Positions 15,254 through 48,892 of a stretch of 64,000 bases of DNA are shown piece by piece (position 1 is the stretch's first letter; the number at the start of each line of letters is the position of its first letter). The stretch is from the NCBI GenBank assembly GCA_035559535.1, contig DATMBG010000012.1, forward strand, positions 124,001 to 188,000, read 5' to 3'. The position numbers were made by a program, and so were the translations under genes. Source of the DNA: Candidatus Limnocylindrales bacterium (GTDB lineage Bacteria > Moduliflexota > Moduliflexia > Moduliflexales > JAUQPW01). The notes under the pieces are model-generated. The model saw only the letters and a list, made by a program, of their open reading frames with translations. It did not search any database and was not told the origin of the DNA.

Positions 15254-15575
15254 GTATCTGATCTGTATCCATTTAGTATGGGGAAGAGGATATTCCCCCC
15301 CTGGCCCTCATACGCACCGGGTTAAACTGAAGAGTCCGGTCAGGGGCGAACTGTCGGTAGCCCCCAACACAAGTCGGAGGTTTCAGTCATTCAGAATTTT
15401 TTCAAGCTCAAACAGGTCACCCCGCTAGGGCTAACCTTCTTATCCTGGCGCGTAGGTCCTTGAGTGGGAGACTTCAGTAAGAACAATCCCTCCCCCCCCC
15501 TAACCTCTCTCCCAAGTTGGGGTTAGGGGCATAGGTGCCAGAATAAGAAGGTTGGCTCCAGCGGGGTAACCTGGG
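15254..15575. mobile_element. Nested mosaic: family A left end interrupted by a family B cassette (15309-15456), plus an inverted duplication
   Basis: ATCTGTATCCATTTAGTA matches family A; ends CATACGCACCGGGTTAA and rc CCTACGCGCCAGGATAAG match the 24378-24548 element; ~15413-15456 is an imperfect inverted copy of ~15530-15573. Confidence 0.7.
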
Positions 15576-15607
15576 GATAGCCTCTGGTACTCATTGCTCT
15601 TTATCTA

Positions 15608-15637
15608 TTGACAGAGAGGACCCTCCCCTTTTAAAAT
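15608..15637 (+). promoter_or_regulatory. Sigma70-type promoter for the Hfq-like/MTase operon
   Basis: TTGACA-N18-TAAAAT, ~45 nt upstream of ATG 15681; GAGGT RBS. Confidence 0.55.
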
Positions 15638-15680
15638 TTATTTTTAGTTTCTCTTAAAAAACGTTGAGGTACCTTGGATT

Positions 15681-16109
15681 ATGTTACTTACATCACAAAC
15701 CCCAATCATCATAAAGTTAACTAACCGAGAGACCTTGAGCGGTCTCTTTTTAAAACTGGATGAAAATAGTCTTTATATTCGGGATCAGGGACAGATCCGG
15801 GCTATTCCTTTCCTGGATATTCAGTATGGCTATCTTGTTCAAGAGCAAGAACTCGTCCAGAGAGCCCTTCGCCATATGAAGAACCTGGAAGGGGTTGATT
15901 TCAAACCCGGTAGCCTCAAAGTTCCCGACGGCTTTCTTCAAGATGCTATTATAAAGGGTTACCCCATTGGATTAACAACCCTGGATGGAACGGTCATCTC
16001 AGGGAAACTCCTTCAGTTCGATCCCCTCTGTCTCTTTTTGGAATTACGTAAGGGTGGTAAAATTTGGGTTTTCCGTTGCGCGCTCACGAGCTTTTATAAA
16101 ATTTTATGA
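15681..16109 (+). CDS. Tandem Sm/Hfq-like domain protein
   Basis: C-half PDGFL..YPIGLTTLDGTVISGKLLQFDPLCLFL..WVFRCALTS aligns by eye with Hfq QDPFL..[36 protein letters not shown]; N-half has a weaker Sm1 pattern. Confidence 0.65.
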   Translation: MLLTSQTPIIIKLTNRETLSGLFLKLDENSLYIRDQGQIRAIPFLDIQYGYLVQEQELVQRALRHMKNLEGVDFKPGSLKVPDGFLQDAIIKGYPIGLTTLDGTVISGKLLQFDPLCLFLELRKGGKIWVFRCALTSFYKIL

Positions 16110-18394
16110 ATCTTAAATCCCTGCGATCCCTGGTTCAGACTTGTAAAGGGTACCTGGAAGAAGATTTGAGCCGTCAGTTGGTAGGAACATGGAAAGATAG
16201 AGACCAGCAGATGCAGAGACGCAGGGACCCGGAGACATGGAACCATGCAAAGGGACTAATTCTTCCTTTGGCTCCGGAAGATTCCTGCCGGGCGGTCGAC
16301 CCGGCTGTTAAGACCTATGTGAAGGAACTTGCCCTGAGTTTTTTCCTTCAGCAGGTTATCTCCCATGTTTGGGAACAGATTTCTCTATCTCCGGGTTCCT
16401 GTATTTCTACCGTTTTGCCTTCTTCAATTACTCCTTCTGAGTCTACCTTAAAAAAGGTTCAGACCTGTCTGAGAGAAGGAATCTCATCTGCCGATTGGCA
16501 TCTTCCGGATATATTGGGCTGGATTTATCAATTCTTCATGGAGGAGACTGAGGAACAGATCCAAAAAGGCCAGTTTTATACCTATCCCTGGATAGGGAGT
16601 TATCTGGTCGAAAAAACTTTGAAAACTTTTTGGGAAGAAATCAAAGCGGGGCAACGGGATTTGAAGCGGGTTAAGGAAATCAAACTTTTAGATCCTGCTT
16701 GTGGTTGTGGAAGTTTGTTAATTCAAGCTTTTGAGGTATTTTATCAAATGTATCAAGAGGAAGGGGAAATTTCTGAAGGGGAGATACCTCGATATATTTT
16801 AAAGTACAATCTCTATGGAATCGACATAGATCCACTGGCCTGTCAATTGGCAACCCTGAACCTTTACCTCAAAGCTAAAGAAAAAGATCCTGGGTTTTCC
16901 ATGGAGACCCTCCCTATCCTTTGTGCGGATACTTTACTGGGAGAAGAGAGTCGGAGGGGAAGAATCCCTGAAATCGCCTATCAGATTGGAAGTTATATCC
17001 ATCAACTTTGCCAGGACTTTTCCTTTTCTACCCTTTGTTTCTCCCCCCCTCCCCTGCTCGCGGGGGAGCCCTCCCGTGGACGGGGGGAAGGGGGGCTTCT
17101 ACCGCAGATCCGGGGCAACGGACTACAGACCACGGATAGTGACCCACATGCTTTTTTCCGGCAGCGTTATGAGTGTATTGTTGGAAATCCTCCCTATGTG
17201 GTTATCAATCAGCTCAAAACTCCACCGGAGGTGGTTGCCAGATATAAACGGTATCGGTCTGCAACTTTCAAGATCAACACCTTTGCCCTCTTCCTCGAAC
17301 GGGGAATCGAACTTTTAGCTCCCAAGGGGCTCCTCAGCTATGTGGTCCCAAATACCCTATTCACCCAGGTTTACTTTGAAGCGTTGAGAAAATATCTTCT
17401 GGAGAAGACCCGAATTCTAGAAATCATGGATACCAAAGGTCTTTTTCAAAATGCCTTTGTAGAGAATTGTATTATTTCCCTGGAGCGAGAATCTCAAGAA
17501 GAACAGAGGAAAAATCAGGAAGTCCAGATCAAAGTCCCTCCTGCTGAGAATTTACGAATCCTCCAAGGTCCTGGAAACCCTGTTTTTTCCTGTTACCAGA
17601 CCCACACGATTCGGCAGAGTCAATTCTATAGGACTCCCGGTGCCCTGTTCAACATCTATCTTAAAGGTGCGGAGATTCAACTCATGGATAAAATCGAAGC
17701 CGGATGCTGGGCTCTGGGAGAAATCTGCGAAAGCCATGATGGGATCAATCCGGGAAATGTAAAACGAAAGTTGATTTCTACCCGGAAACTAACCGAACAT
17801 CATAAAAAGGTTTTAAATGGAAAGGATATCTGGCGATATGGGCTTCGGTGGAGCGGCCTGTACATTTGGTATGATCGGCGTATTCTGGAACCTGGAGATA
17901 ATATGCGATGGGGATCTGAGAGGGCTTTAAAGTCTGCAAAAATTCTTACCCGGCAAACAGCCGATCGAATCATCGGAACTTTCGATGAAGGGATCTATTA
18001 TGTTACAAATACCATTCACACCACCATTCTTCGAGAAGGGGTTCAGGGAGTTGATCTGAAATACATCCTGGCCCTGTTGAACTCCAAACTTCTTTCTTTC
18101 TACTATCGAAAATTGATTCCAGAAACCGGCCAGCTTTTTTCCCAGGTTAAGCTGGTTCATCTCAGAAAGTTACCTATCAAAAAGGTAGAACTCCAGGTTC
18201 AGAAGGAATTCGTAACGCTGGTAGACGCCCTTATGTCTGCCCATCAGGTTCCGATTAATCAGAGGAGTAGAGAAGAAATCCACCAGATTGACCTGTTGTT
18301 GGATCGGAAAGTTTATGAACTTTATGAATTAGAAGAAAGTGAAATTCAGCGCATAGAAGCAGCAGGGAAGATATCCCATAGCGAAGGGCAATAA
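16106..18394 (+). CDS. N6-adenine DNA methyltransferase with PglX/Eco57I-like core and TaqI-like C-terminal specificity domain
   Basis: ILGWIYQFF, GQFYT, LLDPACGCGSL (motif I), ILKYNLYGIDID, VGNPPY (motif IV), KILTRQT..YILALLNSKL..LRKLPI..VYELYEL. Confidence 0.88.
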   Translation: MNLKSLRSLVQTCKGYLEEDLSRQLVGTWKDRDQQMQRRRDPETWNHAKGLILPLAPEDSCRAVDPAVKTYVKELALSFFLQQVISHVWEQISLSPGSCISTVLPSSITPSESTLKKVQTCLREGISSADWHLPDILGWIYQFFMEETEEQIQKGQFYTYPWIGSYLVEKTLKTFWEEIKAGQRDLKRVKEIKLLDPACGCGSLLIQAFEVFYQMYQEEGEISEGEIPRYILKYNLYGIDIDPLACQLATLNLYLKAKEKDPGFSMETLPILCADTLLGEESRRGRIPEIAYQIGSYIHQLCQDFSFSTLCFSPPPLLAGEPSRGRGEGGLLPQIRGNGLQTTDSDPHAFFRQRYECIVGNPPYVVINQLKTPPEVVARYKRYRSATFKINTFALFLERGIELLAPKGLLSYVVPNTLFTQVYFEALRKYLLEKTRILEIMDTKGLFQNAFVENCIISLERESQEEQRKNQEVQIKVPPAENLRILQGPGNPVFSCYQTHTIRQSQFYRTPGALFNIYLKGAEIQLMDKIEAGCWALGEICESHDGINPGNVKRKLISTRKLTEHHKKVLNGKDIWRYGLRWSGLYIWYDRRILEPGDNMRWGSERALKSAKILTRQTADRIIGTFDEGIYYVTNTIHTTILREGVQGVDLKYILALLNSKLLSFYYRKLIPETGQLFSQVKLVHLRKLPIKKVELQVQKEFVTLVDALMSAHQVPINQRSREEIHQIDLLLDRKVYELYELEESEIQRIEAAGKISHSEGQ

Positions 18395-18506
18395 AGCTAA
18401 AAGGGAAGAATTCAGCTATGGCCGATTTAGCAATACTGTTGTTAATCCCCCACACGAAAGCCACGAAGATCAGGAATATATCTGCCAGTAAGTGTTTTTT
18501 TCCCAT
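18354..18506 (-). pseudogene. Truncated EamA/DMT transporter (first two TM helices only)
   Basis: MGKKHLLADIFLIFVAFVWGINNSIAKSAIAEFFPFSFIALRYGISSLLLL is a typical EamA N-terminus; similarity stops where the MTase 3' end begins. Confidence 0.75.
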
Positions 18507-18702
18507 ACGACTGCCCATCCTTTATATAATAAGCCGCCCTTTGGCTTAAGGATGAAAATTTTATTAAAATTTCCTTGCCAGAAACTGGGATTTTTTAATA
18601 AAATCGAAGAATCTAAAGCATATCCATTCGTCATGAAAAGGAGGTATCCTTGCATAGGAACGAAATATGAAGTTCGTATAACTTATCTAATTTAATAGAG
18701 GA

Positions 18703-47224: not shown

Positions 47225-48892
47225 ATGCCGAAAAAATCTTTACAAGAATATTTTACCACCAGTTCTCGGATTGTGAATTGTATGGTTTCATTGCTTCAAC
47301 TTCCTCCTGGAAGTTTAATCCTCGAGCCGTGTGCAGGTACCGGTCACTTTATTCGGGCCCTTCTAAAAAAAGCTTATCGGGTTTTTGCCGTAGAGCTCTC
47401 CCGGGATCATTACCTTTCTCTCCATCGCCGGTGGGGAGATTGTTTGTCGCTTCTTCAAGGCGATTTTCTGGAAATGGCCCTTCCTTCGACTTCCCACCCT
47501 GTGATTTTTCAAAACGTAGCCTTCGATGGAATCATCGCCAATCCACCTTACGGTATGTATCTGGAACCGGTACGAAGAAGACAATTCAAGAAGGTTTTGG
47601 GCCCTTTTTATACCCGGGAAACCTATGGACTCTTCCTCAAGCTTTCTGCCCCTTTACTTCGTGAGGGAGGGAGGCTGGTTTATATCATTCCAGATACGTT
47701 TCTTAGCGTTCGTATGCATTTCCCTTTAAGAAGGTACTTATTTAAAGAAATGAAAGTAACCCATCTGATTACCTTTCCTTCCCATTTCTTCCCGGGAGTG
47801 GATTTTGGATATGCCAGACTTTGTATTCTGGGGGCTACCCGCGTGAAACCAAAGCCGGAAGATGTTATTGAGTGGATCCAGCTCCATTCCTCAGATGGTC
47901 CGGAATCCCTCGTTTCGCTGGATTCCCTTCCTTCTAGGAAACACCTTCCCATTTTTTATAAAGACTTATGGCTTTCGGAGGATTTGAATATAAACTATGT
48001 CCGAAGCTACCTTACGGCTATGCCCCTGCGTTCCTATTTCAGTGTCCTGTTAAAGGATAAAGAAAACCCAAGAGAAAGTAAATCCCCTTCAGACTTCCCT
48101 TTCTTAAAGAAAAAACCGGAAGTTTCTCCCTTCCTGCCGGAGGGATTTGTTATGAACTGGTCTCCAGGTTTGGAATTGAGAAGGATTGACGGGCTACAGA
48201 GATGGGTCCCTCTGGGTGAGCTGGCCACCTGCAAGACAGGGATTTACACGGGGGATAACTCGAGATTTCACTACTGGAATCGGGATCATCCTCCAAGGAA
48301 AAAATCGGGTCAACCCCTGGATTGGAGGCTGGTCCAAGATCCCAGGACTTTATCTACCGAGGAAAAGACCTTTGGAATCGAAGGGGATCGGCATTTCGTC
48401 CCTTTAATCAAGGGGGGACATTATCCCCCGGTGGGAGAAACCCGCTGGGCCATCGACTGGTCCCGAGAAGCTCTCCGATTCTATCAAACAGATAAGAAAG
48501 CCCGATTTCAAAATAGTTCCTGGTACTTTAAAAAAGGATTGGCCGTTCCTATGGTCACGTCGGGCCGATTATCTGCTTCCTTAATGGAACATAGTGTATT
48601 CGATCAGGGTGTAGTAGGAGTTTTTCCTTATGAGGCACATCTTATCCCGTTTTTATTACTTTATCTCAATACTTCCTTAGCTACTCAATGGATGAAGGAA
48701 GTCATTAACCCCTCAGCCAATAATTCCGCCAATTATGTTAAGAAACTTCCCGTACCTGTTCCGAAAGATCAACAGGTTGAAGCCTGCCGAATTAAGCTGG
48801 CCGAATTAACTACCCAAATCGTAGATACCCCTGAAAAGGTTATTCGGGGCTGGATAGATAAATTCTTTCAGGAAATGTTTCAACAGATCTGA
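47225..48892 (+). CDS. Orphan N6-adenine DNA methyltransferase (Eco57I/TaqI-like, C-terminal specificity domain)
   Basis: QEYFT, ILEPCAGTGHF, IIANPPYG, IIPDTFL, CKTGIYTGDN, LLYLNT..VKKLPVP. Confidence 0.88.
   Translation: MPKKSLQEYFTTSSRIVNCMVSLLQLPPGSLILEPCAGTGHFIRALLKKAYRVFAVELSRDHYLSLHRRWGDCLSLLQGDFLEMALPSTSHPVIFQNVAFDGIIANPPYGMYLEPVRRRQFKKVLGPFYTRETYGLFLKLSAPLLREGGRLVYIIPDTFLSVRMHFPLRRYLFKEMKVTHLITFPSHFFPGVDFGYARLCILGATRVKPKPEDVIEWIQLHSSDGPESLVSLDSLPSRKHLPIFYKDLWLSEDLNINYVRSYLTAMPLRSYFSVLLKDKENPRESKSPSDFPFLKKKPEVSPFLPEGFVMNWSPGLELRRIDGLQRWVPLGELATCKTGIYTGDNSRFHYWNRDHPPRKKSGQPLDWRLVQDPRTLSTEEKTFGIEGDRHFVPLIKGGHYPPVGETRWAIDWSREALRFYQTDKKARFQNSSWYFKKGLAVPMVTSGRLSASLMEHSVFDQGVVGVFPYEAHLIPFLLLYLNTSLATQWMKEVINPSANNSANYVKKLPVPVPKDQQVEACRIKLAELTTQIVDTPEKVIRGWIDKFFQEMFQQI

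What the first reader, a model, noticed from the sequence alone, without database searches (positions are those of the whole stretch)
15608..18394. Tandem Hfq-like protein translationally coupled to a solitary PglX-like DNA methyltransferase
Seen: a promoter candidate, then a 142-aa ORF overlapping (ATGA) a 762-aa adenine MTase. The small protein appears to hold two Sm-fold repeats; the second follows Hfq closely but has FRC in place of the RNA-binding YKH. The MTase core (ILGWIYQF, LDPACG, ILKYNLYGIDID..LYLKA) resembles BREX PglX, while the C-terminus is TaqI-like. No brxC, pglZ, brxL or restriction nuclease lies nearby. Known: Hfq/Sm rings bind RNA and DNA; PglX normally acts within BREX. 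Inference: a two-gene defence or epigenetic module in which an Sm-fold oligomer assists or regulates the MTase. I know of no description of this pairing.
Basis: partly seen in the sequence, partly recalled or inferred. Interest (0 to 1): 0.8.

Follow-up and report, generated by a model that had tools for sequence, protein, structure and literature searches.

The report
Tandem Hfq-like gene before orphan methylase
A small protein made of two Hfq-like barrels overlaps the start of a stand-alone DNA adenine methylase gene, but the two occur together only in one small bacterial family, so this looks like a local operon, not a new defence system.

Summary
A 142-aa ORF (15681-16109) overlaps by ATGA a 762-aa Eco57I/TaqI_C-type N6-adenine DNA methyltransferase (16106-18394), behind a good sigma-70-like site. 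Both halves of the small protein are Sm/Hfq-like by model. The C-half is also Hfq-like by sequence, with FRC where Hfq has YKH.

The defence reading is not supported. The MTase falls far below the PglX cut-off, no PglZ was found in the genome, and the neighbours are metabolic genes.

The MTase has one orthologue in 8 of 9 genomes of its phylum (names on hits: KSB3, Moduliflexus, Vecturithrix). Its specificity domain is the best-conserved part, as expected of a housekeeping orphan methylase. The small gene was found only in the window's family: 5 assemblies, with DNA seen for 3, all with ATGA. Sister-family orthologues follow a glycosyltransferase or a phosphoesterase gene instead.

The small protein is under purifying selection. 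It is a free-standing copy of a two-barrel module that elsewhere is fused to cold-shock domains, and in this genome also to a ParB-like domain. None of 9 such loci has a DNA methylase nearby.

Best reading (about 0.5): an Hfq-like nucleic-acid binder in an Hfq-less lineage, linked to the methylase in expression only. A dedicated partnership stays possible (about 0.2).

The parts
15608..15637 (+). sigma-70-like promoter candidate, TTGACA-18-TAAAAT
   Evidence: 11 of 12 matches, best site in the region. The same DNA aligns in the sister species L021, which matches from 15593 on. No transcript data.
15666..15670 (+). Shine-Dalgarno-like GAGGT, 10 nt before the small ORF's ATG
   Evidence: Read from the sequence.
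15681..16109 (+). 142-aa tandem Sm/Hfq-like protein gene
   Evidence: ORF. dN/dS 0.12 against the sister species. Model pLDDT 78. The Atlas holds a model with pTM 0.85.
15681..15851 (+). domain 1 (res 1-57): five-stranded Sm/SH3-like barrel without an N-terminal helix
   Evidence: Strands at 8-52. Z 7.5-8.1 to Hfq, tied with other small barrels.
15918..16106 (+). domain 2 (res 80-142): Hfq-type helix plus five strands, FRC at the Sm2 position
   Evidence: Pfam Hfq_1 27.1 bits. Profile against PDB E 8.1e-5, 35 of 35 hits Hfq. rmsd 0.8-1.8 A to Hfq.
16106..16109 (+). ATGA start/stop overlap (inferred translational coupling)
   Evidence: Present in the window, L021 and L023, 3 of 3 loci with DNA in hand. 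No Shine-Dalgarno-like run before the MTase ATG.
16106..18394 (+). 762-aa solitary gamma-class N6-adenine DNA methyltransferase (Eco57I-family core plus TaqI_C specificity domain)
   Evidence: Pfam. Best PADLOC model is MTase_II. One orthologue in each of 8 of 9 phylum genomes.
16688..16711 (+). motif I, LDPACGCG (AdoMet binding)
   Evidence: Translation. L195, D196, C199, G200 and G202 are invariant in the 11-sequence alignment A2.
17040..17096 (+). in-frame G+C-rich palindromic insertion (about 16 extra residues) between the two catalytic lobes
   Evidence: Absent from the G001 and P0133 proteins. Similar DNA at 8 other places in the genome.
17186..17197 (+). motif IV, NPPY (catalytic)
   Evidence: Translation. 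N361-Y364 invariant in A2.
17807..18178 (+). TaqI_C target-recognition domain (res 568-691)
   Evidence: Pfam 78.1 bits. 63-69% identical to 7 sister-family-type orthologues, the best-conserved region.

Best explanation
This is a two-gene operon confined to one family of a small phylum. Hit names for that phylum are candidate division KSB3, Ca. Moduliflexus and Ca. Vecturithrix.

Gene 1 encodes a free-standing two-barrel Sm/Hfq-like protein. By analogy with Hfq rings it would assemble three copies into a six-barrel ring and bind single-stranded nucleic acid. I favour RNA, because the same module is fused to cold-shock domains in other phyla and because this phylum has no canonical Hfq.

Gene 2 encodes a solitary N6-adenine DNA methyltransferase. 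It is inherited across the phylum with a conserved specificity domain, so I read it as a housekeeping epigenetic enzyme in the manner of Dam, CcrM or CamA.

The link between the two is at the level of expression. They share one promoter, and the methylase has no ribosome-binding site of its own, so it is translated by ribosomes that finish the small ORF at the ATGA overlap. The methylase does not need the small protein to work.

Shown: the gene structure, the folds, family membership of the MTase, the distribution, and purifying selection. Inferred: the ring, RNA binding, translational coupling, and the housekeeping role.
For: Folds and homology of the small protein.

It is a real gene. dN/dS against the sister species is 0.12 (dN 0.031, dS 0.258), compared with 0.20 for the MTase. 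Against L023 its dN is 0.169, compared with 0.263 for the MTase.

The module occurs elsewhere. Profile A4 found matches spanning both barrels in 5 of 392 genomes outside the phylum, at E 5.9e-4 to 1.7e-25; four of the five are at 4.1e-17 or better and G136 is the weak one. Four of these proteins carry an N-terminal cold-shock domain (CSD 50-74 bits). The Atlas's structural neighbours agree (TM 0.90 to part of a CSD-bearing cluster).

No canonical Hfq: PF17209 passes its cut-off in 0 of 9 phylum genomes, while the control genomes ring.

The MTase is ancestral and works without the small gene. There is one orthologue in each of 8 of 9 genomes, behind a GT4 glycosyltransferase or a metallophosphoesterase gene in the sister family. 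No module was found in those loci.

The TaqI_C domain is the best-conserved part: 63-69% identity, against 54-57% for the NPPY lobe and 33-39% for the AdoMet lobe.

In the sister species the small ORF carries an in-frame TAA at codon 56 while the MTase is intact.

The ATGA overlap is kept in 3 of 3 loci, with no Shine-Dalgarno-like run before the MTase.

The neighbourhood is metabolic: TctABC, an aldolase, a hydrolase and a solute-binding protein.
Against: - No binding, oligomer or transcript data exist.
- The window's protein has Cys where relatives and Hfq have the Sm2 His. A classical uridine pocket is therefore doubtful here.
- This genome's paralogue is fused to a ParB-N-like domain and a lysine-rich region, which hints at DNA as much as RNA.
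- The pair stays together, with ATGA, in L023 although the upstream flank differs.
- MTases of the family that has the small gene carry an extra segment (about res 23-60) that sister-family orthologues lack. Both observations would also fit a real partnership.
- All pairs descend from one ancestor, so adjacency can neither prove nor disprove a link.
- The 'housekeeping' label rests on distribution among only 9 genomes.
Confidence: 0.5

Rival explanations
1. Dedicated partnership. The Hfq-like ring is a subunit or regulator of this methylase. It could tether the enzyme to single-stranded DNA or RNA, or bind the operon's own mRNA to set methylase levels.
For: - The ATGA overlap is conserved in 3 of 3 loci across 26% (small protein) and 40% (MTase) protein divergence.
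- The pair is retained where the upstream flank differs.
- A family-specific insert in the MTase N-terminus co-occurs with the small gene.
- The small protein is more conserved than the MTase.
- The Atlas places FljA-type clusters near it by features (0.92) and by structure (TM 0.72). FljA is, from memory, an mRNA-specific translational repressor. The tool itself marks this family call as probably wrong.
Against: - Orthologous MTases in 6 of 7 sister-family genomes exist without the small gene.
- 0 of 9 module loci elsewhere have a DNA MTase within about 6 kb.
- In the sister species the small ORF is interrupted while the MTase is intact.
- All instances trace to one evolutionary event.
Confidence: 0.2
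2. The small protein is a DNA-binding, nucleoid-associated factor rather than an RNA chaperone, and is unrelated in function to the methylase.
For: - The only paralogue in the genome joins the same module to a ParB-N-like end and a basic low-complexity region.
- E. coli Hfq bound to dsDNA (5uk7) is among the structural matches.
- The Sm2 His is lost in the window.
Against: - Outside the phylum the module is fused mainly to cold-shock domains, in 4 of the 7 proteins examined. These are classically RNA and single-stranded-DNA binders.
- The ParB_N match is below its cut-off (17.4 against 26.3 bits).
Confidence: 0.15
3. Anti-phage or restriction-type module: a BREX-like or R-M-like system with the Sm protein as a sensor or accessory.
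For: - The AdoMet stretch (res 190-262) is closest to solved PglX/BrxX chains.
- PADLOC PglX models score up to 148 bits.
- Weak structural echoes of WYL regulators such as BrxR and CapW appear at Z 4.5-5.0, with rmsd 3-6 A.
Against: - The PglX model scores 176.9 against a cut-off of 500 bits, and the protein is 762 aa against a 1210-position PglX model.
- The best PADLOC model is a plain type II MTase.
- No PglZ was found in the genome, there is no nuclease domain and no defence neighbour.
- The gene is vertically conserved with a conserved specificity domain.
- The small protein is absent from PADLOC, PHROGs, phages, plasmids and viral contigs.
Confidence: 0.03
4. The small ORF matters mainly as a translated leader that delivers ribosomes to the methylase start, and its protein product is dispensable or decaying.
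For: - There is no Shine-Dalgarno-like run before the MTase and the ATGA overlap is kept.
- An in-frame stop occurs in the sister species.
Against: - dN/dS is 0.12 overall, and 0.145 and 0.128 for the two halves.
- The fold is confidently predicted, with homologues in other phyla.
Confidence: 0.05

Closest known systems
Hfq, including the cyanobacterial 'Hfq-related' branch (Pfam PF17209, PF21979; NCBIfam NF047718)
   Same: Domain 2 has the Hfq helix-plus-five-strand fold, at 0.8-1.8 A rmsd over 57-61 residues. It aligns in sequence through the Sm2 region. It reaches the PF21979 cut-off by 0.1 bit.
   Different: There are two barrels in one chain, and the first lacks the N-terminal helix. PF17209 scores 15.1 against 27 bits, and NF047718 scores 28 against 52. 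FRC replaces YKH. Ring formation and RNA binding are untested.
Two-domain Hfq proteins (NCBIfam NF010691 'PRK14091', 176 positions; Atlas clusters of 164 and 194 aa carrying PF17209 and PF21979)
   Same: Same two-barrel layout. NF010691 aligns to res 3-134. The Atlas gives TM 0.72-0.73.
   Different: The sequence match is negligible (16 bits against a cut-off of 270). Those proteins carry canonical Hfq domains.
Uncharacterised cold-shock-domain plus tandem Hfq-like fusion proteins (L041-L044) and the ParB-N-like fusion in this genome (L002 601..2214)
   Same: They share the same 140-residue module, collinear over both barrels (E 1e-17 to 1e-25 with profile A4; 16-24% identity). They also share QTP, IP, TTL-G and [F/L]RH positions.
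   Different: The window's protein is the bare module with no extra domain, and its genus has Cys for the His. I found no paper on these fusions among the listings.
BREX PglX / BrxX
   Same: Same Eco57I-type gamma-class adenine MTase core. The best solved-structure match covers res 190-262.
   Different: About 440 residues shorter, far below the family cut-off, with no BREX partners.
Solitary housekeeping adenine methylases (Dam, CcrM, CamA; the roles are recalled, and the PDB 7lni family matches res 351-466)
   Same: No nuclease partner, present in nearly every genome of the lineage, and a conserved specificity domain.
   Different: Different subfamily and domain order. The target motif and biological role are unknown. 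The lineage sample is only 9 genomes.

Membership tests
Hfq / Sm superfamily | Sm fold: N-terminal helix followed by a strongly bent five-stranded sheet | tested here: met
   Domain 2: helix 83-92 plus strands 95-141. All 50 of the 50 listed entries are Hfq, at Z 6.5-7.2 and rmsd 0.8-1.8 A. Hfq fills the top 7 of 48,161 chains. Domain 1: barrel only, Z 7.5-8.1 to Hfq but tied with other small barrels.
Hfq (Pfam PF17209) / Hfq_1 (PF21979) | Score at or above the curated gathering cut-off | tested here: inconclusive
   PF21979 scores 27.1 against 27 bits on the protein, but 18.5 bits in the six-frame genome search. PF17209 scores 15.1 against 27. NF047718 scores 28 against 52.
Hfq | Sm2 motif [Y/F]KH lining the proximal uridine pocket | tested here: not met
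   FRC in the window. LRH in P0003 and [F/L/M][R/K]H in module relatives.
Hfq | Homo-oligomeric ring and RNA binding | not tested
   No oligomer prediction was run. It needs SEC-MALS or a structure, and binding assays.
Gamma-class N6-adenine DNA methyltransferase, Eco57I family with TaqI_C specificity domain | Motif I (xDPxxGxG) before motif IV (NPPY), followed by a TaqI_C domain, with Pfam scores above cut-offs | tested here: met
   Eco57I 95.9 against 25.3, N6_Mtase 74.2 against 20.4, TaqI_C 78.1 against 26.5. Motifs read and invariant in A2.
BREX PglX | NCBIfam BREX MTaseX model above cut-off | tested here: not met
   BREX-1 scores 176.9 against 500. BREX-6 scores 104.3 against 900. BREX-5 scores 98.3 against 900. 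BREX-2 scores 34.4 against 400.
BREX PglX | Encoded with PglZ, BrxC and other BREX genes | tested here: not met
   PF08665 was not found in the own genome, which is 95.8% complete. Neighbours within about 10 kb are metabolic.
Type IIG restriction-modification enzyme (Eco57I / MmeI type) | N-terminal nuclease domain fused to the MTase | tested here: not met
   No nuclease family was found at E <= 1 on res 1-133. Longer relatives carry PF04313, PF20465 or PF13588, but this clade does not.
Lineage-conserved orphan (solitary) methyltransferase | No adjacent nuclease, near-universal in the lineage, conserved specificity domain | tested here: met
   8 of 9 genomes have one match each. TaqI_C is 63-69% identical across families. 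No nuclease neighbour in the window. Upstream genes in the sister-family loci are GT4 or Metallophos.
   The pair occurs only within one family. It is apart in 6 sister-family genomes and in 9 of 9 module loci from other phyla.

The most novel reading that the evidence does not exclude
In one Moduliflexota family, a free-standing tandem-Hfq ring was recruited as a dedicated nucleic-acid-binding subunit or mRNA-level governor of a phylum-wide housekeeping adenine methylase. That would tie DNA methylation to an RNA or single-stranded-DNA signal, and would be the first Sm-protein/DNA-methyltransferase partnership.
Probability: 0.12. Interest if true: 0.7.

Novelty: new variant of a known kind. 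Interest (0 to 1): 0.35.

Why it matters
If the best reading is right, three modest points follow:
1. A phylum with no canonical Hfq in the 9 genomes searched has, in one family, two divergent two-barrel Hfq-like proteins. These are candidates for its RNA-chaperone function.
2. The same two-barrel module recurs in other phyla fused to cold-shock domains. I found no description of that protein family in the listings searched.
3. The methylase looks like a lineage-wide orphan enzyme with a fixed target. It would be a candidate Dam/CcrM-type regulator for an uncultured phylum.

Only if the two proteins truly cooperate would this be a new kind of epigenetic module.

Tried and rejected
- **Complex prediction of MTase (A2) with the small protein (A1):** score 0.00, verdict 'no answer', controls not run. 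This is neither for nor against binding.
- **RNA sequencing runs for 15300-18500:** no RNA holder was listed.
- **First AF2 model from 5 near-identical rows:** poor, pLDDT 55.7. It was replaced by a 9-row alignment with paralogues, pLDDT 78.
- **Foldseek PDB search with the poor model:** Hfq on top, but only at E about 3e-3.
- **Single-sequence searches for distant relatives of the small protein:**
  - The word-indexed search found only 3 clusters.
  - The exhaustive phmmer search found 3 hits at E <= 0.001: the protein itself, a 55-aa fragment, and a 1769-aa repetitive protein (P0125). I set P0125 aside as a repeat or composition artefact after reading it.
- **A hit in G040 (E 0.0028):** it lies antisense to an acyl-CoA synthetase gene and was dropped.
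- **Rfam on the 5' intergenic region:** nothing near a gathering score.
- **No tRNA in the window and no G+C anomaly around the pair:** no sign of an island.
- **Other collections:** Genome contigs and metagenome scans with the MTase alignment gave only 2 and 6 loci. The viral scan with the module gave none, and tblastn against phages and plasmids gave none.
- **FljA (PF03614) as a relative:** suggested only by the Atlas, with no Pfam match at E <= 1. Kept as a lead.
- **WYL-domain resemblance** (Z 4.5-5.0, rmsd 3-6 A): too weak to use.
- **Literature:** four searches. I saw only listings and abstract starts. None described an Hfq-like gene paired with a DNA methylase or cold-shock/tandem-Hfq fusions. 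No paper was opened.
Full report
**What is there**

Two ORFs on the + strand share ATGA. One is 15681..16109 (142 aa) and the other is 16106..18394 (762 aa). The best sigma-70-like site of the region, TTGACA-18-TAAAAT, lies at 15608-15637. The total count of such sites is 8, against 5.2 +/- 2.3 in shuffles, so the count itself is not remarkable. A GAGGT precedes the small ORF by 10 nt. No comparable purine run precedes the methylase ATG. Base composition around the pair is flat and the window has no tRNA.

**The small protein**

Pfam places res 86-136 in Hfq_1 at 27.1 bits (cut-off 27). PF17209 Hfq reaches only 15.1 bits and NCBIfam's cyanobacterial Hfq-related model 28 against 52.

A first AF2 model from five near-identical rows was poor (pLDDT 55.7). 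Its N-half nevertheless aligned to Hfq at Z 7.5-8.1, about 2 A over 50-57 residues. That was tied with a BirA C-terminal barrel and a cytochrome domain.

Adding five paralogue rows gave a much better model, with pLDDT 78 and pTM 0.74. It shows strands 8-52, helix 53-67, a disordered linker 68-82, helix 83-92 and strands 95-141. In this model res 80-142 superpose on Hfq at rmsd 0.8-1.8 A over 57-61 residues. All 50 of the 50 entries listed are Hfq. In a search of 48,161 representative chains the top 7 are Hfq, followed by Sm/Lsm proteins.

A sequence profile of the protein with its paralogues hit only Hfq chains in the PDB (35 of 35, best E 8.1e-5). It aligns the window's VFRC position with Hfq's VYKH. 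The ESM Atlas holds the sequence with a confident model (pTM 0.85), and its structural neighbours include two-domain Hfq clusters. The two halves have no detectable sequence similarity to each other.

The 'tandem Sm/Hfq-like' observation therefore stands. It is firmer for domain 2 than for domain 1.

**It is a real gene, but a narrow one**

Against the sister species (G001/L021) dN/dS is 0.12 for the small gene and 0.20 for the methylase. Against L023 its dN is 0.169, compared with 0.263.

Single-sequence searches found only close relatives. The word-indexed search found P0002 (87%) and P0003 (74%). The cluster look-up added P0130 (142 aa) and P0131 (77 aa). The exhaustive phmmer search added only a 55-aa fragment and a 1769-aa repetitive protein, which I regard as spurious.

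In the sister species codon 56 is TAA where the window has CAA. This falls exactly between the two barrels, and both halves still show low pN/pS (0.145 and 0.128). The 77-aa C-half ORF is on record from 4 contigs, which may be re-assemblies of one sample.

**Relatives of the module**

The same genome encodes a 537-aa protein (G000:C32; L002 601..2214). Its res 295-440 align collinearly with the whole small protein (BLASTP E 1e-5, 22%). This paralogue ends in a ParB-N-like stretch that is below its Pfam cut-off. It too is confined to the family.

I searched a 146-position profile of the module (A4) over 401 genomes, and 35 had a match. Outside the phylum (392 genomes):
- 5 genomes (6 loci) match across both barrels: G280 (twice), G223, G056, G371 and G136.
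- 8 genomes match from within barrel 1.
- 20 genomes match only barrel 2, in short frames that look like ordinary Hfq.

I examined seven of these module proteins:
- Four are cold-shock-domain fusions of 233-324 aa (L041-L044), with CSD at 50-74 bits.
- Two have no CSD hit (L045 by Pfam; L046 is its close homologue and was not itself scanned).
- One (L056) has weak sub-cut-off TPR hits at its N-terminus.

All relatives carry [F/L/M][R/K]H where the window has FRC.

**The methylase**

Pfam gives Eco57I 95.9, TaqI_C 78.1, N6_Mtase 74.2 and MmeI_Mtase 36.9 bits. Motif I (LDPACGCG) precedes NPPY. No nuclease domain was found.

The BREX-1 PglX model scores 176.9 against a cut-off of 500. The best PADLOC model is a plain type II MTase (161.9 bits), ahead of PglX (148.4). 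Among solved structures, PglX/BrxX chains match only res 190-262. The 7lni family, TaqI and BseCI match the NPPY lobe. PglZ was not found in the genome.

The neighbours are TctABC, an HpcH aldolase, a hydrolase, a solute-binding protein, a luciferase-like oxidoreductase and others.

**Distribution of the methylase**

The phylum holds 9 genomes in the collection. Names on homologues are candidate division KSB3, Ca. Vecturithrix and Ca. Moduliflexus. Eight of the 9 have exactly one match at E <= 1e-40. G002 (93% complete) has none.

In the sister family the gene upstream of the methylase is a GT4 glycosyltransferase in genus g3. In two g3 loci it is separated from the methylase by a terminator-like hairpin. 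In genus g4 the upstream gene is a metallophosphoesterase.

A six-frame search of 12 methylase loci with the module profile hit only the two from the window's family.

Region by region, the window's enzyme is 63-69% identical to seven sister-family-type orthologues in the TaqI_C domain. The figures are 54-57% in the NPPY lobe, 33-39% in the AdoMet lobe and 15-22% at the N-terminus. There, the window's family has an extra segment of about res 23-60.

A specificity domain that is the best-conserved part of a near-universal, nuclease-less enzyme is what one expects of a housekeeping orphan methylase. It is not what one expects of a diversifying restriction or defence component. This is an inference.

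**Is the pairing meaningful?**

For a link:
- ATGA is kept in 3 of 3 loci with DNA in hand.
- The methylase has no ribosome-binding site of its own.
- In L023 the pair persists although the upstream gene differs.
- The family-specific insert in the methylase co-occurs with the small gene.

Against a link:
- All pairs come from one family, so from one event.
- The methylase exists without the small gene in 6 sister-family genomes.
- 0 of 9 module loci in 8 other genomes have this methylase type within about 6 kb at E <= 1. None has any Pfam DNA-methylase family among 92 ORFs at E <= 1e-6. Two have an unrelated class-I SAM methyltransferase next door.
- The small ORF is interrupted in the sister species while the methylase is whole.

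**Verdict**

The sequence-level observation is confirmed. The defence reading is rejected. The 'epigenetic module' reading remains a minority possibility.

My best explanation (about 0.5) has three parts. The small protein is a free-standing tandem Hfq-like nucleic-acid binder, probably for RNA, in a lineage without canonical Hfq (0 of 9 genomes over the PF17209 cut-off). It is co-transcribed and translationally coupled with the methylase. The methylase itself is a phylum-conserved orphan adenine methylase that does not depend on the small protein.

The ring, the ligand, the coupling and the housekeeping role are all inferred, not shown.

Noticed in passing
window 15413-15459 and 15527-15573: A 47-nt inverted repeat (81% complementary, 67 nt apart) sits upstream of the promoter candidate. 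It belongs to a dispersed repeat family, with 61 matches across many contigs of the same genome. The stretch 15507-15592 does not align with the sister species.
   Followed up: partly
window 17040-17096 (inside the methylase ORF): An in-frame G+C-rich palindromic insertion adds about 16 residues between the two catalytic lobes. It is absent from the G001 and P0133 orthologues. Similar DNA occurs at 8 other genomic places, some beside copies of the repeat above.
   Followed up: partly
window about 18358-18518: Relative to the sister species, 743 nt are missing. This removes most of a convergent EamA transporter gene (87-aa remnant against 299-306 aa) and replaces the last codons of the methylase.
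   Followed up: partly
L005 / L021 (sister species G001), small ORF codon 56: An in-frame TAA (CAA in the window) lies exactly at the linker between the two barrels. It leaves a 55-aa ORF and a 77-aa ORF, and both halves are still under purifying selection.
   Followed up: partly
G000:C32, L002 601..2214: A 537-aa family-restricted protein. It has a lysine-rich low-complexity N-terminal half, two copies of a short I-x-D-G-x-x-T-L-E-E-Y motif, the tandem Hfq-like module, and a ParB-N-like C-terminus below its Pfam cut-off.
   Followed up: partly
L041-L044 (G280, G223, G056, G371): Cold-shock domain plus tandem Hfq-like fusion proteins of 233-324 aa occur in unrelated genomes. No dedicated Pfam or NCBIfam model exists for them, and no paper appeared in the listings searched.
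   Followed up: partly
window 47225-48892 (+): A second, shorter Eco57I / N6_Mtase-type ORF (555 aa) lies 29 kb downstream on the same contig.
   Followed up: no
all 9 genomes of the phylum: No canonical Hfq (PF17209) passes its cut-off in any of the 9, while the control genomes ring.
   Followed up: yes
L017 and L018, just upstream of the methylase start: In genus g3 a perfect terminator-like hairpin followed by a T run separates the glycosyltransferase gene from the methylase orthologue. The methylase may therefore have its own transcript there.
   Followed up: no
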